Below the pieces are notes generated by a model that saw nothing but the letters and a program-made list of their open reading frames with translations, did not search any database and was not told the origin of the DNA. The position numbers were made by a program, and so were the translations under genes. From the IMG/VR virus record IMGVR_UViG_3300001242_000012: a stretch of 41,946 nucleotides of DNA, one strand, 5' to 3'. Origin of the DNA: a virus (taxonomy: Duplodnaviria; Heunggongvirae; Uroviricota; Caudoviricetes). Below are positions 3,410 through 9,769 of this stretch, piece after piece. Each line of letters starts with the position of its first letter. Position 1 is the stretch's first letter.

Positions 3410-3482
3410 TGGATGGCACGGTAAGAGTCGAACTTACGTCACCAGCTTGTGGGCCGGAGCTCTACCATTAAGCTACATGCCA
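3410..3482 (-). tRNA. tRNA-like RNA with a 6-nt anticodon loop (CCACAA), U73 and encoded CCA
   Basis: Acceptor UGGCAUG/CGUGCCA, canonical D and T arms, stem CCGGC/GCUGG. Confidence 0.75.
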
Positions 3483-6887: not shown

Positions 6888-6910
6888 TCGAGATCTCCTA
6901 AAAATATTTA

Positions 6911-7073
6911 TATTTGGGGAGGGATTAACGATTCTTCACCCTCGATTCCTGCCCTATACGACCATGATGTATAGCTCCGTATTGGCTTCGCTAACAGGTA
7001 TAGTTCTTTTCTTTGTCATAGACTTTTAATCTATTACCAACTCTTTGATCGTATGACTACTATCACCCAAATA
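6911..7073 (-). ncRNA. candidate multibranch structured RNA
   Basis: Terminal helix UAUUUGGG/CCCAAAUA plus several internal helices; no ORF. Confidence 0.45.
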
Positions 7074-7080
7074 ATTGTCC

Positions 7081-7146
7081 ATGGGAGAATAGTTAAGTAG
7101 GGTATATTATCTGTACGTAGAAGTAACCCTACTTTACACTACCCAT
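7081..7146 (-). ncRNA. Y RNA-like unit A (short, tRNA-less), just downstream of the Ro60 gene
   Basis: AUGGG/CCCAU outer stem, UAGUGUA, 9-bp inner stem, UACUUC, UAUUCU. Confidence 0.7.
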
Positions 7147-7152
7147 GAAATC

Positions 7153-8769
7153 TTAATATCTGTTTATAGTTTCAAGCACATTAGTGTTGTTGACTTCGCA
7201 TGTTTTAACGAAGTCAAAGATCTTTTCTGACCAACCAGCTATCCTATATACGTTAGGTTCATCCATAGGTACCGGTGTAGTACCATATGAAGATAAATCA
7301 ATAGTATATAGTTTGATATCTGGATTTATTGTTCTCCTATAGTCTTTCAGTAAATCAGCTAATGCCTTTCTGCTGCCACCACCATAACCCCAAGCAGTAA
7401 CACCATAGCATTGTTCGTCAGAGAAGATGAAGATTCTATCCGCAAAGGTTTTCTTCTTCAGTAGCTCTTCGACTACACGGTAAGCATTTGTAGACATACC
7501 TTTGGTATCTGCCCTAGCTATCCTATTCATGTTAGTGAATATGGAGTCAGCCGGATTAAGGTTAACAGGGCACCAATCAGTACCGAAAGCACCTACTATA
7601 GAAGACTCACAGAAACCATGAGCCATAGCACATAGTAAATTAGCAATGTTGGCACATGATACCTTGCTTCTTTCTGATACAGCTTGTGACATAGAACCAG
7701 AATTATCAGCTGCAAGCAGTGTTATACCTTCAAGCATAGGGACATTCTGTACACTTATACTAATGGCCTCAGATAATGCTGCAAGTACTTTAGATATATT
7801 AGGATTAGTACCAATTAAGCTTTCCATTTCACGATAAGCACTATAAAATCTAAATGGAAGCTGCTTAGATCTAAGAACTTGATTAGGGTCCTTCAATCTC
7901 TCAATGACACTACCTATACATTTAGCATCAGCATTAATGATGTTCCTTATATTACGGAGCATAGCCATGAAAGGTAAGTTAAGTTCATCCCATACTTCAG
8001 GCTTGTTACCAAACTTACTTACAGCCATCTCCCAGGTCATATCACCAGCCCTAATAAGATGTCTAGCTTCTTCGAAGTTATCTATCTTAGCAAACTCTTT
8101 ATGAGCTTTGTGCAGCACCATAACGTCATCGTTCTCTATATCATGACACATATACTTAAAGATAGCATCGTGCAGTACATCACTTGGTTTAGCACGACAT
8201 ACTCTGATTACATCTTTAATCTTAACTGATTTACTCCTGTCATACTTTAAGAAATGATACTCACCGAAAGTATTCAATACATCGGAGATACCTTTCTTAA
8301 GTGAGTTAGGGAAGGCATGAGTGCCACCTGCTTGACCTTTATCACCTATGTCACCATGTTTACTAACCCAGTAAGCAACTAGTTCAGCAGGTTCATCAGC
8401 ACGCTTTAATATACGAGGAACCCATTTACGAACGAATGGCTTACACTCATTGATTGCTGCAGCTTCACCCAGTAGTACTATAGGTATAGATCTTAAGTAC
8501 ATTTCATTTCTAGCATAAGCAGCTAGCTTTAAGATAAACTCAGGATCTATAGCTGCTACTTGCTTAATGTCTCTGATAATACCAGCAAGAGTTTCAGTGT
8601 TTTTCTGGTAGTAAGTATCAGACAGTAAGCAGTTACATACTTTCTTATACAGTCTAGTTTTAGCATCCATTTCGAAAGCTACACCACCTGCGAGGTTCTT
8701 AATTACATCAGGTCTGTTGACCACACTAGCCAATCTACTGGCAGAATTAAATTTAGACATTAGTGTCAC
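7153..8769 (-). CDS. rsr: Ro60/TROVE-domain RNA-binding protein with C-terminal vWA domain
   Basis: N...GG.AF, DPEFILKLA.YAR....LRS, PFMAMLRNIRN, SKQLPFRFYSAY, DNSGSM (MIDAS), IFSDEQ, IAGWSEKIFDF. Confidence 0.95.
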   Translation of the reverse strand: MTLMSKFNSASRLASVVNRPDVIKNLAGGVAFEMDAKTRLYKKVCNCLLSDTYYQKNTETLAGIIRDIKQVAAIDPEFILKLAAYARNEMYLRSIPIVLLGEAAAINECKPFVRKWVPRILKRADEPAELVAYWVSKHGDIGDKGQAGGTHAFPNSLKKGISDVLNTFGEYHFLKYDRSKSVKIKDVIRVCRAKPSDVLHDAIFKYMCHDIENDDVMVLHKAHKEFAKIDNFEEARHLIRAGDMTWEMAVSKFGNKPEVWDELNLPFMAMLRNIRNIINADAKCIGSVIERLKDPNQVLRSKQLPFRFYSAYREMESLIGTNPNISKVLAALSEAISISVQNVPMLEGITLLAADNSGSMSQAVSERSKVSCANIANLLCAMAHGFCESSIVGAFGTDWCPVNLNPADSIFTNMNRIARADTKGMSTNAYRVVEELLKKKTFADRIFIFSDEQCYGVTAWGYGGGSRKALADLLKDYRRTINPDIKLYTIDLSSYGTTPVPMDEPNVYRIAGWSEKIFDFVKTCEVNNTNVLETINRY

Positions 8770-8784
8770 TCCTTATAATTTGAT

Positions 8785-8871
8785 ATGAGAGAATAAATGA
8801 ATAGGGTAATTTGATGTTTCAATAAGATACTAATTTGTATATATGAAGTAACCCTATCCTACACTACTCAT
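8785..8871 (-). ncRNA. Y RNA-like unit B (short)
   Basis: AUGAG/CUCAU outer stem with the conserved motifs. Confidence 0.7.
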
Positions 8872-8879
8872 AAATTTGT

Positions 8880-9017
8880 ATGGGAGAATAATCACATAGA
8901 GTAGCTTTTAGTGCTCTAACCAACTGAGCTACAGAACCTTTTGATGAGGCCCTGGTAGGACTCGAACCTACGACCACTCGATTACAATTCGATGAAACTC
9001 TATGCTACACTACCCAT
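8880..9017 (-). ncRNA. YrlA-type Y RNA unit C (circularly permuted tRNA module)
   Basis: T arm GUAGG-UUCGAGU-CCUAC precedes a loop-closed acceptor stem, then D arm UAGCUCAGUUGGUUAGAGC. Confidence 0.85.
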
Positions 9018-9024
9018 AATATTG

Positions 9025-9162
9025 TATCAGGAAGAATTGTTCGTTAAGAGTACATAGTGCTCTACCAGCTGAGCTACGGAGCTATCAGTTGCTCTGATGG
9101 GACTCGAACCCATGACCACTCTATTAAATGTAGAAGTAACTCTTAACTACACTGTCCTGATA
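9025..9162 (-). ncRNA. YrlA-type Y RNA unit D
   Basis: T arm AUGGG-UUCGAGU-CCCAU, closed acceptor stem, D arm UAGCUCAGCUGGUAGAGC. Confidence 0.85.
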
Positions 9163-9170
9163 ATAAGCTT

Positions 9171-9311
9171 AGATTAGGAAGAATAAGCTATAAGGGTACA
9201 TTACGTTGCCTTGACTACTTGGCTAACCCACTATGGTTGTGGGTGAGAGATTTGCACTCCCGATCACGGCTGAAGATGCGAAGTAACCCATTATATACAC
9301 TATCCTAATCT
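9171..9311 (-). ncRNA. YrlA-type Y RNA unit E
   Basis: T loop UGCAAAU, ACCCAC/GUGGGU closed acceptor stem, D arm UAGCCAAGUAGUCAAGGC. Confidence 0.8.
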
Positions 9312-9319
9312 TAAAATTG

Positions 9320-9459
9320 TTAGGGAGAATTAAGCGATAAGAGACTATCTAAACCAGTGCCTTGGACCGCTTGGCTAACCCGTGATAGCCACGGGTGGAG
9401 GATTTGAACCTCCGGATGCTGGTGCCCTATTGAAGTAACTCTTATCTACACTACCCTAA
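9320..9459 (-). ncRNA. YrlA-type Y RNA unit F
   Basis: GGAGG-UUCAAAU-CCUCC, ACCCGUG-GCUAU-CACGGGU, D arm UAGCCAAGCGGUCCAAGGC, CUGGU/ACCAG stem. Confidence 0.88.
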
Positions 9460-9467
9460 TAGTTTGC

Positions 9468-9534
9468 GATAGGAGAATAATTAATAGTAGGGTGGCACTT
9501 TTATCAGAAGTAACCCTACATCACACTACCTATC
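9468..9534 (-). ncRNA. Y RNA-like unit G (short)
   Basis: GAUAGG/CCUAUC outer stem with the conserved motifs. Confidence 0.7.
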
Positions 9535-9541
9535 AATATTT

Positions 9542-9625
9542 TAATGAGAGAATAATTGGACAGAGAGCTTTGTATATAAATAAGAAGTTTATTTTTGAAG
9601 TAACTCTGCCCTACACTGCTCATTA
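9542..9625 (-). ncRNA. Y RNA-like unit H (short)
   Basis: UAAUGAG/CUCAUUA outer stem with the conserved motifs. Confidence 0.7.
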
Positions 9626-9769
9626 ATTACGTTGTGCTGGTGGTGCTCCTGGTCTAGAACTTACAGGAGCAGAATTGAGTCCTTGCTTTCTGACTCTACC
9701 CTGTGTAAGTAGAGCTTTATTAGGTTTAATACTATCATGTTTGAATAGATTTAACAACCATTTAAGCAT
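9623..9769 (-). CDS. small basic protein, 48 aa (MLKWLLNLFK...RPGAPPAQRN)
   Basis: Manual translation; AAGGAUGGU RBS-like sequence. Confidence 0.55.
   Translation of the reverse strand: MLKWLLNLFKHDSIKPNKALLTQGRVRKQGLNSAPVSSRPGAPPAQRN

What the first reader, a model, noticed from the sequence alone, without database searches (positions are those of the whole stretch)
7081..9625. Phage Ro60 gene with an array of eight Y-RNA-like elements
Seen: seven tandem units upstream of the Ro60/TROVE ORF (8785-9625) and one downstream (7081-7146). Each reads outer stem - YAGUGUR - inner stem ending RRGU - UACUUC - variable domain - inner stem' - WAUUCU - outer stem'. UACUUC is in 7 of 8; unit C has UUCAUC. 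Stems differ between units but always pair (AUGGG/CCCAU, AUGAG/CUCAU, UAUCAGGA/UCCUGAUA, AGAUUAGGA/UCCUAAUCU, UUAGGG/CCCUAA, GAUAGG/CCUAUC), while the loop motifs stay fixed. Established: bacterial and some phage Ro60 genes neighbour Y RNAs, typically one or two. Inference: a modular RNP system in which one Ro protein uses eight interchangeable RNAs with a shared docking stem and different payloads. I do not see the GNCGAA-type Ro motif I recall from described Y RNAs, so this may be a distinct subfamily.
Basis: partly seen in the sequence, partly recalled or inferred. Interest (0 to 1): 0.92.

Follow-up and report, generated by a model that had tools for sequence, protein, structure and literature searches.

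The report
Phage Ro60 with eight Y RNAs
A 244-kb groundwater jumbo phage carries a Ro60 gene flanked by eight small RNA genes that share one conserved docking stem but have different bodies (four tRNA look-alikes, four plain hairpins); this is a large but not unique example of the known Ro60-Y RNA partnership.

Summary
Eight units lie on the minus strand: seven head-to-tail at 9626-8784, directly upstream of a genuine Ro60 gene (8760-7153; TROVE plus Ro60 vWA), and one at 7149-7078, 4 nt after its stop codon.

All eight share a "handle": outer stem, bulged pyrimidine, AG:CU, UGUR loop, inner stem, then UUACUUC. A covariance model of the handle finds exactly these eight in the window. A motif scan finds no others in the 244-kb genome.

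The same model gives 328 hits in about 160 Ro60 loci, every one on the Ro60 strand, with strong compensatory covariation.

- U3-U6 carry permuted tRNA-like domains of the YrlA type.
- U1, U2, U7 and U8 are short, YrlB-like hairpins.

The handle is not a separate family. The commonest relative form, GNCGUAG, is one letter from the published GNCGAAN0-1G motif, and AGCGUAG bridges it to this phage's AGUGUAG.

Arrays are common. Here 50 of 129 loci with hits had three or more, and the published Caulobacter phage CcrColossus has seven. Eight was the maximum in my sample. Earlier notes of this scan report similar arrays of 4 to 17 on other DNA.

Expression and Ro60 binding are untested. Verdict: new member of a known kind; moderate interest.

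The parts
7153..8760 (-). Ro60 (Rsr-type) gene, 535 aa from the ATG at 8760. AAGGAG ribosome-binding site at 8774-8769. MIDAS-type DxSxS motif present.
   Evidence: Pfam TROVE 1.4e-33 and vWA_Ro60 2.9e-07. phmmer to the solved phiLo Ro60 structures 9KOP/9L5Y gives E = 3.9e-25 over residues 21-527. D352, S354 and S356 are invariant in the 34-sequence alignment.
9541..9626 (-). U1: short Y RNA (YrlB-like). 8-bp outer stem, handle CAGUGUAG, AU-rich 30-nt loop.
   Evidence: Fold. Model R1: 76.5 bits.
9467..9535 (-). U2: short Y RNA. 7-bp outer stem, handle UAGUGUGA.
   Evidence: Fold. R1: 38.9 bits, E = 6e-10; not used to build the model.
9320..9459 (-). U3: YrlA-like Y RNA with a permuted tRNA-like body. 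Order: T arm, 7-bp acceptor-like hairpin, D arm with a 3-bp stem and long loop.
   Evidence: Fold. R1: 45.4 bits, not in the seed. T and D arms read directly in the sequence.
9171..9311 (-). U4: YrlA-like Y RNA. 9-bp outer stem; tRNA-like body of the same type as U3.
   Evidence: Fold. R1: 38.1 bits, not in the seed.
9025..9162 (-). U5: YrlA-like Y RNA. tRNA-like body with a class-I type D arm (GUAGCUCAGCUGGUAGAGC).
   Evidence: Rfam YrlA RF02553: 39.0 bits, E = 2.1e-06, below the gathering score of 69. R1: 45.1 bits.
8879..9018 (-). U6: YrlA-like Y RNA. 7-bp acceptor-like hairpin. The only unit with UUCAUC instead of UACUUC.
   Evidence: Rfam YrlA: 42.9 bits, E = 1.6e-07, sub-threshold. Rfam tRNA: 28.7 bits, just under 29. 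R1: 44.1 bits.
8784..8872 (-). U7: short Y RNA. It ends 9 nt before the Ro60 ribosome-binding site.
   Evidence: Fold. R1: 80.7 bits. Spacing read.
7078..7149 (-). U8: short Y RNA. It starts 4 nt after the Ro60 stop codon.
   Evidence: Fold. R1: 63.0 bits.

Best explanation
These are eight Y RNA genes of the bacterial and phage YrlA/YrlB kind, partners of the phage's own Ro60.

Shown:
- Each RNA closes with the same handle: a 6-9 bp outer stem, one bulged pyrimidine, a 2-bp AG:CU step, an asymmetric internal loop (5' UGUR; 3' a purine plus 5-8 nt ending in UU), an 8-9 bp inner stem, and the single-stranded UUACUUC.
- The bodies differ. Four are circularly permuted tRNA mimics (T arm, acceptor-like hairpin, D arm). 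Four are short hairpins with AU-rich loops.
- Units are separated by only 6-13 nt, with no sigma-70-like promoter or intrinsic terminator found between them.

Inferred:
- The array, the Ro60 mRNA and probably the neighbouring tRNA genes are made as one long transcript. Host RNases then cut it into separate RNAs.
- Ro60 docks on the handle. The handle sits where the published GNCGAAN0-1G Ro site sits and resembles it.
- The different bodies tether the ring to different partners. The tRNA mimics would reach tRNA-binding enzymes. The open AU-rich loops would reach single-strand-binding exoribonucleases such as host PNPase.
- Together with the phage's tRNA set and its RtcB ligase, this would retool RNA quality control and decay during infection.
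For: - Ro60 identity.
- Eight units with a common fold.
- Model R1 finds exactly eight in the window, including five not used to build it. A motif-plus-stem scan finds no other complete unit in the 244-kb genome.
- Compensatory changes among the eight: 98.5% paired, 11 of 17 pairs changed on both sides.
- Linkage to Ro60: 172 + 156 R1 hits in about 160 Ro60 loci from IMG/VR and GTDB genomes, all on the Ro60 strand and none on the other strand.
- Across 145 distinct homologues, 92.2% of cells pair against 58.6% when shuffled. All 17 pairs show double changes. The covariation score is 0.868, against about 0.13 when the partners are slid.
- The nearest Ro60 relatives (51% identity) carry 2-3 such units directly upstream.
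- U5 and U6 hit Rfam YrlA at E = 2e-6 and 2e-7.
- Published biology: YrlA is a tRNA mimic next to Ro60 on the same strand. [quoted passage not shown] A phage Ro60 binds two upstream Yrl RNAs and host PNPase (PMC12135203).
- CcrColossus, cited as a phage with Y-like RNAs, has seven units with this handle upstream of its TROVE gene.
- No sigma-70-like promoter on the minus strand between 10890 and 6500, and no terminator-like site.
- RtcB is present in the same genome.
Against: - No RNA data exist for this uncultured phage, so transcription, processing and stable accumulation are not shown.
- Ro60 binding is not shown.
- The literal GNCGAAN0-1G motif is absent from all eight units.
- No unit reaches the Rfam YrlA gathering score (42.9 and 39.0 against 69).
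- The covariation alignments were fitted to the model's structure, which inflates pairing somewhat.
- The promoter scan covers only sigma-70-type sites, so phage-specific promoters inside the array cannot be excluded.
- The partners of the bodies (PNPase, tRNA enzymes) are extrapolated from Deinococcus, Salmonella, Mycobacterium and Thermus phage work.
Confidence: 0.8

Rival explanations
1. The units act mainly on their own, independently of Ro60, as tRNA-derived decoys or sponges. The four tRNA mimics would soak up host tRNA-directed defence or processing enzymes. The shared stem would merely replace the anticodon arm and stabilise the RNA.
For: - The array sits inside the phage's only tRNA cluster: all 14 tRNAs lie within 58-73 kb of the genome.
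- The genome carries RtcB, an RNA repair ligase typical of counter-measures to tRNA cleavage.
- U3-U6 keep the T, D and acceptor features but have no anticodon loop.
Against: - Four of the eight units have no tRNA-like part yet keep the handle perfectly.
- The handle is found on the Ro60 strand beside Ro60 genes in about 130 loci. A free-standing decoy would not need this.
- The sequence-conserved, single-stranded parts of the handle (AGYGYAG, UUACUUC) point to a specific protein contact.
Confidence: 0.08
2. The repeats are cis-acting structures of a long operon transcript and not stable trans-acting RNAs. They would be processing or stability elements, or Ro60-binding operators that autoregulate Ro60 translation.
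For: - U7 ends 9 nt before the Ro60 ribosome-binding site and U8 starts 4 nt after the stop codon.
- Spacers are only 6-13 nt, with no promoters or terminators detected.
- The same tight placement before the Ro60 start is seen in L002.
Against: - Seven tandem copies are far more than an operator or stabiliser needs.
- In relatives the arrays lie upstream, downstream or both, up to 3 kb away.
- Homologous RNAs (YrlA, YrlB, Yrl1 and Yrl2) are experimentally stable Ro60-bound RNAs (PMC4201824, PMC12135203).
- An autoregulatory role for U7 is compatible with the main explanation.
Confidence: 0.05
3. The units are a separate RNA family with its own, different protein partner, and merely co-localise with Ro60.
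For: - The literal GNCGAAN0-1G motif is absent.
- The Rfam YrlA model does not reach its threshold.
- R1 found nothing beside the Ro60 genes of HGTV-1, cr111_1, Vibrio phage Va1 and Gordonia phage Rabbitrun.
Against: - A graded series of handles connects it to the published motif.
- The tRNA-like bodies have the YrlA arrangement.
- The only gene consistently next to the handle across phages, Bacteroidota, Clostridia and Patescibacteria is Ro60, because the loci were collected by that gene alone and all hits are co-oriented with it.
Confidence: 0.05

Closest known systems
Bacterial YrlA / YrlB Y RNAs with Rsr (Salmonella Typhimurium, Mycobacterium smegmatis; Chen et al. 2014, PMC4201824; Rfam RF02553)
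   Same: - Encoded next to Ro60 on the same strand.
- The 5' and 3' ends close a long stem, with a conserved purine-rich motif on the 5' strand.
- One class carries a T arm, acceptor-like hairpin and D arm in the YrlA order. A second class is a plain hairpin.
- YUAY follows the inner stem (here UUAC).
   Different: - The handle reads YAGUGURG instead of GNCGAAN0-1G.
- UUACUUC is extended and nearly invariant, even in the units without a tRNA-like body.
- There are eight genes instead of two.
- Rfam scores are 39-43 bits, below the gathering score of 69.
Caulobacter phage CcrColossus TROVE gene gp139 and its upstream RNAs (JX100810; cited as a phage with Y-like RNAs in PMC12135203)
   Same: - Jumbo phage with its Ro60 gene beside tRNA genes.
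- Seven tandem units with the same architecture directly upstream.
- A mix of tRNA-like and short bodies.
   Different: - Its handle is U-GG-CGUAG (GNCG type) in GC-rich stems.
- All seven units lie upstream of the gene.
- The units are unannotated, or labelled tRNA-Gln or terminator, in the record.
Thermus phage phiLo Ro60 with Yrl1 and Yrl2 (PMC12135203; PDB 9KOP, 9L5Y)
   Same: - Phage-encoded Ro60 with Y-like RNAs directly upstream.
- The protein matches over its full length (E = 3.9e-25).
- It is an experimentally shown phage Ro60-RNA-host PNPase complex, which is the model for the mechanism proposed here.
   Different: - Two RNAs, identified through a CGAA motif.
- No array and no reported tRNA-like bodies.
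Deinococcus radiodurans Yrn1 / Yrn2 and metazoan Y RNAs
   Same: - Terminal stem with a bulged helix as the Ro60 site.
- Several paralogous Y RNAs per genome (2-4).
- The loop tethers an effector (PNPase).
   Different: - Both strands of the GGUCCGA-type helix are conserved there.
- The arrangement of the tRNA-like parts differs.
- There are no tandem arrays.

Membership tests
Y RNA of the bacterial/phage YrlA-YrlB kind | Encoded within about 4 kb of a Ro60 (TROVE) orthologue and on the same strand | tested here: met
   - Seven units lie 24-866 nt upstream of the gene and one lies 4 nt downstream, all on the minus strand with it.
- The same holds for 328 of 328 model hits in other Ro60 loci.
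Y RNA of the bacterial/phage YrlA-YrlB kind | 5' and 3' ends pair into a long stem that carries the Ro60 site | tested here: met
   - Outer plus inner stems are present in all eight units.
- 98.5% of cells pair and 11 of 17 pairs change on both sides.
- In the wider family, all 17 pairs covary.
Y RNA of the bacterial/phage YrlA-YrlB kind | GNCGAAN0-1G motif near the 5' end (Chen et al. 2014) | tested here: inconclusive
   - The literal motif is absent from all eight units. They read AGUGUAG, or AGUGUGA, AGUGUAU and AGUGUAA.
- The motif is at the same position and is linked by intermediates. These are GGCGAAUG in the Rfam consensus, GNCGUAG as the commonest form in relatives and in CcrColossus, and AGCGUAG in the nearest relatives.
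- Homology of the motif is an inference.
YrlA (Rfam RF02553) | tRNA-like domain: T arm, acceptor-like stem-loop and D arm, in that order | tested here: met
   - Present in U3-U6.
- The Rfam alignments of U5 and U6 cover the T, AS and D arms with high posterior probability.
- Absent from U1, U2, U7 and U8, which are therefore YrlB-like and not YrlA.
YrlA (Rfam RF02553) | Score at or above the curated gathering threshold (69 bits) | tested here: not met
   - Best scores are 42.9 and 39.0 bits. There were no hits at the gathering threshold.
- CcrColossus, Chryseobacterium and other relatives also stay below it. The model therefore does not cover this branch. I file the units under the Y RNA kind, not under the Rfam family as curated.
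Y RNA (functional definition) | Stable small RNA physically bound by Ro60 | not testable with these tools
   No RNA run holds the sequence. Testing this needs RIP or EMSA.
Ro60 / Rsr protein | TROVE HEAT-repeat ring plus a vWA domain with a MIDAS DxSxS motif | tested here: met
   - Pfam TROVE and vWA_Ro60 are both over their cut-offs.
- Full-length match to a solved phage Ro60.
- DNSGS is conserved.

The most novel reading that the evidence does not exclude
The array is a true adaptor library. One phage Ro60 ring is loaded in turn with eight RNAs whose bodies each recruit a different host factor or substrate class. The two kinds of tRNA mimic, with 7-bp acceptor-like stems, may be cut by RNase P and CCA-tagged. 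The four open AU-rich loops would reach exoribonucleases. The phage could then reprogramme host RNA decay and tRNA surveillance, or blunt tRNA-targeting defences, in several directions at once. On this reading, array expansion (2-3 units in the nearest relatives, 8 here) tracks an arms race with the host.
Probability: 0.15. Interest if true: 0.7.

Novelty: new member of a known kind. Interest (0 to 1): 0.4.

Why it matters
Ro60-Y RNA particles are well studied in animals and in three bacteria, but what phages do with them is barely known. One biochemical study exists, on Thermus phage phiLo.

- This locus is a clean natural example of one handle carrying eight different bodies, placed inside a tRNA operon of a phage that also carries RtcB.
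- The handle model built here shows that multi-copy Y RNA arrays are common around Ro60 genes in phages, Bacteroidota, Clostridia and Patescibacteria. The current Rfam YrlA model misses them.
- That gives a practical route to annotating hundreds of unlabelled RNAs. It also gives a defined set of handle positions to mutate in binding tests: the bulge, AG:CU, UGUA and UUACUUC.

The finding extends a known system and does not reveal a new one.

Tried and rejected
- Rfam at gathering thresholds found only tRNAs in the window.
- A scan for the literal AGUGUR...AUUCU motif in the first four related loci found nothing, because they use AGCGUAG and CCU. A relaxed pattern then found them.
- MAFFT alignments of whole units misaligned the 3' strand. 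I therefore chose units with the same loop geometry for the seed.
- No RNA holder was listed among public runs. The DNA holders are groundwater and soil metagenomes.
- Laying four runs gave only short identical fragments, plus tRNA-like cross-matches from other organisms. It gave no information on variants or expression.
- Model R1 found nothing beside the Ro60 genes of HGTV-1, crAss-like cr111_1, Vibrio phage Va1 and Gordonia phage Rabbitrun. These may use other handles, so this is not evidence of absence.
- No PNPase or RNase PH domain is present in the phage genome.
- The PolyA_pol (CCA-adding type) match is only marginal: 17.7 bits, or 23.4 with its neighbours in the frame.
- The 2020 Annual Review on bacterial Ro60 is not held, and the supplementary tables of Chen et al. 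2014 are not held. I could not check how many YrlA copies they listed per phage.
- I considered REP-like repeats, terminators and attenuators and rejected them. The reasons are strand-specific linkage to Ro60, the conserved single-stranded motifs and the tRNA-like bodies.
Full report
**What is there**

The window is part of a 244,052-bp virus record (IMG/VR; complete by CheckV; 37% GC). It is found in groundwater metagenomes. Its genes include a DNA polymerase, NrdD, a helicase, a primase, a UvsX-like recombinase and a thymidylate synthase, so it is a jumbo phage.

All 14 tRNA genes of the genome lie in one 14-kb stretch, and the finding sits in the middle of it.

On the minus strand, 8760-7153 encodes a 535-aa Ro60.
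- Pfam gives TROVE at 1.4e-33 and vWA_Ro60 at 2.9e-07.
- It matches the solved Thermus phage phiLo Ro60 over its full length (E = 3.9e-25).
- A MIDAS-type DNSGS motif is conserved across 34 homologues.
- The nearest homologues are only 51% identical and come from metagenomic phage-like contigs. At about 43% identity come Patescibacteria.
- Among 50,697 deposited phages the best match is 31.7% identical.

**The observation**

| Unit | Coordinates | Type |
|---|---|---|
| U1 | 9626-9541 | short hairpin |
| U2 | 9535-9467 | short hairpin |
| U3 | 9459-9320 | tRNA-like body |
| U4 | 9311-9171 | tRNA-like body |
| U5 | 9162-9025 | tRNA-like body |
| U6 | 9018-8879 | tRNA-like body |
| U7 | 8872-8784 | short hairpin |
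| U8 | 7149-7078 | short hairpin |

Each unit folds on its own into the same architecture:
- an outer stem of 6-9 bp;
- one bulged pyrimidine;
- a 2-bp AG:CU step;
- an internal loop, UGUR on the 5' side and a purine plus 5-8 nt ending in UU on the 3' side;
- an inner stem of 8-9 bp;
- single-stranded UUACUUC (UUUCAUC in U6);
- a variable body.

I built a covariance model (R1) from three of the units plus nine units from other loci, with only the handle pairs given as structure.
- It finds exactly eight hits in the 42-kb window, all on the minus strand.
- The five units not used to build it score 38-45 bits, E = 1e-9 to 5e-12.
- A motif-plus-stem scan of the whole genome finds no further complete unit.
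- Among the eight paralogues, 98.5% of stem positions pair and 11 of 17 pairs carry changes on both sides. No shuffle out of 500 did as well, and sliding the partner by 1-3 columns drops pairing to 44-57%.

**What the bodies are**

U3-U6 carry, in order, a T arm (GGUUCGAGUCC or GGUUCAAAUCC type), a hairpin that stands in for the acceptor stem, UA, and a D arm. A short helix corresponding to the anticodon stem encloses all of this and continues into the handle.
- This is the circularly permuted tRNA layout described for YrlA (PMC4201824).
- U5 and U6 hit Rfam YrlA at 39.0 and 42.9 bits (E = 2e-6 and 2e-7). Both are below the gathering score of 69.
- U5 and U6 have class-I type D arms. U3 and U4 have a 3-bp D stem with a long loop.
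- The acceptor-like stem is 7 bp in U3 and U6. Chen et al. name this length as the determinant of RNase P cleavage of M. smegmatis YrlA.

U1, U2, U7 and U8 have only AU-rich loops of 16-37 nt. They correspond to the second class seen in every studied species, a long hairpin of the YrlB or Yrn2 type.

**Linkage to Ro60 elsewhere**

I collected about 160 Ro60 loci with 3-kb flanks. They came from IMG/VR and from one genome per GTDB species, through a 34-sequence Ro60 alignment, plus contigs carrying the two nearest homologues.
- R1 gives 172 + 156 hits at E <= 0.01. Every one is on the Ro60 strand and none is on the opposite strand.
- On 145 distinct hits, 92.2% of cells pair, against 58.6% when shuffled.
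- All 17 pairs show double changes. The covariation score is 0.868, against 0.10-0.15 for slid partners. That alignment is fitted to the model, which flatters it somewhat.
- The 2-bp step covaries cleanly: AG:CU, GC:GC, GU:AC and GG:CC.

The linkage is real.

**Relation to the published Ro60 site**

But the handle is not an isolated type.
- Among 295 aligned handles the 2-bp step is AG in 105, GC in 71, GU in 65, UG in 26 and GG in 18.
- After a G-first step the next base is almost always C, giving GNCGUAG. That is one letter from the published GNCGAAN0-1G.
- The Rfam YrlA consensus reads GGCGAAUG, followed 9 nt later by CUAC. Chen et al. describe this as a conserved YUAY after the stem. Here the corresponding letters are UUAC, at a similar though not identical distance (14 against 17 nt from the start of the motif).
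- The nearest Ro60 relatives read AGCGUAG. This phage reads AGUGUAG.

I therefore read YAGUGURG as a diverged form of the known Ro60 site. This is an inference from position and a graded series. It is not a demonstration of binding.

**How unusual is eight?**

Hits per locus, within 3 kb of the gene, were:

| Hits per locus | Number of loci |
|---|---|
| 1 | 52 |
| 2 | 27 |
| 3 | 27 |
| 4 | 13 |
| 5 | 6 |
| 6 | 3 |
| 8 | 1 (this window) |

- Eight is the maximum in this sample, but it is the end of a continuous distribution.
- The cultured Caulobacter phage CcrColossus is cited in the literature as a phage with Y-like RNAs. It has seven units with a U-GG-CGUAG...UACUUC handle packed into the 1.1 kb upstream of its TROVE gene. 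In its record they are unannotated, or labelled tRNA-Gln or terminator.
- Earlier notes of this scan, which are unchecked AI notes, report arrays of 4, 5, 8, 9, 12-13 and 17 handle RNAs beside Ro60-like genes on other DNA.
- The papers I could search describe one to four Y RNAs per genome and two for a phage. I found no description of such arrays. However, the key review and the supplementary tables of Chen et al. were not available.

**Likely mechanism**

Shown:
- gene order and strand;
- spacers of 6-13 nt between unit cores;
- U7 ends 9 nt before the Ro60 ribosome-binding site, and U8 starts 4 nt after the stop codon;
- no sigma-70-like promoter on this strand between about 10890 and 6500, and no terminator-like site.

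Inferred:
- One long transcript covers the tRNA genes, the array, Ro60 and U8, and host RNases cut it up.
- Ro60 binds the handle and protects each RNA.
- The bodies tether the ring to different partners. This follows the model of Rsr-Y RNA-PNPase in Deinococcus and Salmonella and of phiLo Ro60-Yrl-host PNPase.
- The phage has no PNPase of its own, so a host enzyme would be used. It does encode RtcB elsewhere in the genome. This echoes the bacterial rsr-yrlBA-rtcBA association.
- An extra autoregulatory role for U7, through Ro60 bound next to its own ribosome-binding site, is possible but speculative.

**Rivals**

- Ro60-independent tRNA decoys do not explain the four body-less units or the strict co-orientation with Ro60.
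- Purely cis-acting operon structures do not need seven copies, and homologous RNAs are known stable RNPs.
- A separate family with another partner is contradicted by the graded handle series and by Ro60 being the only gene used to collect the loci.

**Verdict**

The finding is a real and well-supported Y RNA array beside a phage Ro60. I rate it a new member of a known kind. It has a diverged handle and the largest copy number in my sample, but it is not qualitatively different from relatives such as CcrColossus. Expression and binding remain untested.

Noticed in passing
window 6905-7077 (minus strand): About 170 nt without an ORF, directly after U8 and before tRNA-Ser(aga). It folds moderately better than shuffles (-38.4 kcal/mol, z = -2.2) with a closing helix. 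It has no Rfam match and lacks the handle. It may be another RNA of the same transcript.
   Followed up: partly
window 9623-9769 (minus strand): A 48-aa ORF lies between tRNA-Ser(gcu) and U1. Its stop codon overlaps the first bases of U1's outer stem. I did not assess whether it is a real gene.
   Followed up: no
G000:C1:5667-6773 (outside the window): The phage encodes an RtcB RNA ligase (413-aa open frame, 165 bits) about 60 kb from Ro60. In Salmonella, rsr, the Y RNAs and rtcBA form one operon. Here they are unlinked but in the same genome.
   Followed up: partly
L170 (Caulobacter phage CcrColossus, JX100810) 1812-2913: Seven handle-bearing units lie upstream of TROVE gene gp139. The record annotates part of this stretch as tRNA-Gln (2131-2198) and as predicted terminators, and does not label them Y-like RNAs.
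   Followed up: partly
L029:1074-1422: A phage-encoded tmRNA (Rfam 119.5 bits) lies about 0.8 kb upstream of a six-unit Y RNA array and the Ro60 gene in an IMG/VR contig. This is another RNA quality-control element in the same neighbourhood.
   Followed up: no
L001:5620-5760: A GC-rich stretch of about 140 nt without a handle lies between the first and second Y units of the nearest Ro60 relative. I did not analyse it.
   Followed up: no
window 8903-8999 against Xanthomonas/Xylella phages (hits H41-H51): The tRNA-like body of U6 matches unannotated 94-nt stretches in eleven 43-kb Xanthomonas and Xylella phages at 74-76% identity. I did not check whether those are tRNAs or Y-like RNAs.
   Followed up: no
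window 3410-3482 (minus strand): ARAGORN calls a tRNA with an undetermined two-base anticodon (Rfam tRNA 51.8 bits).
   Followed up: no
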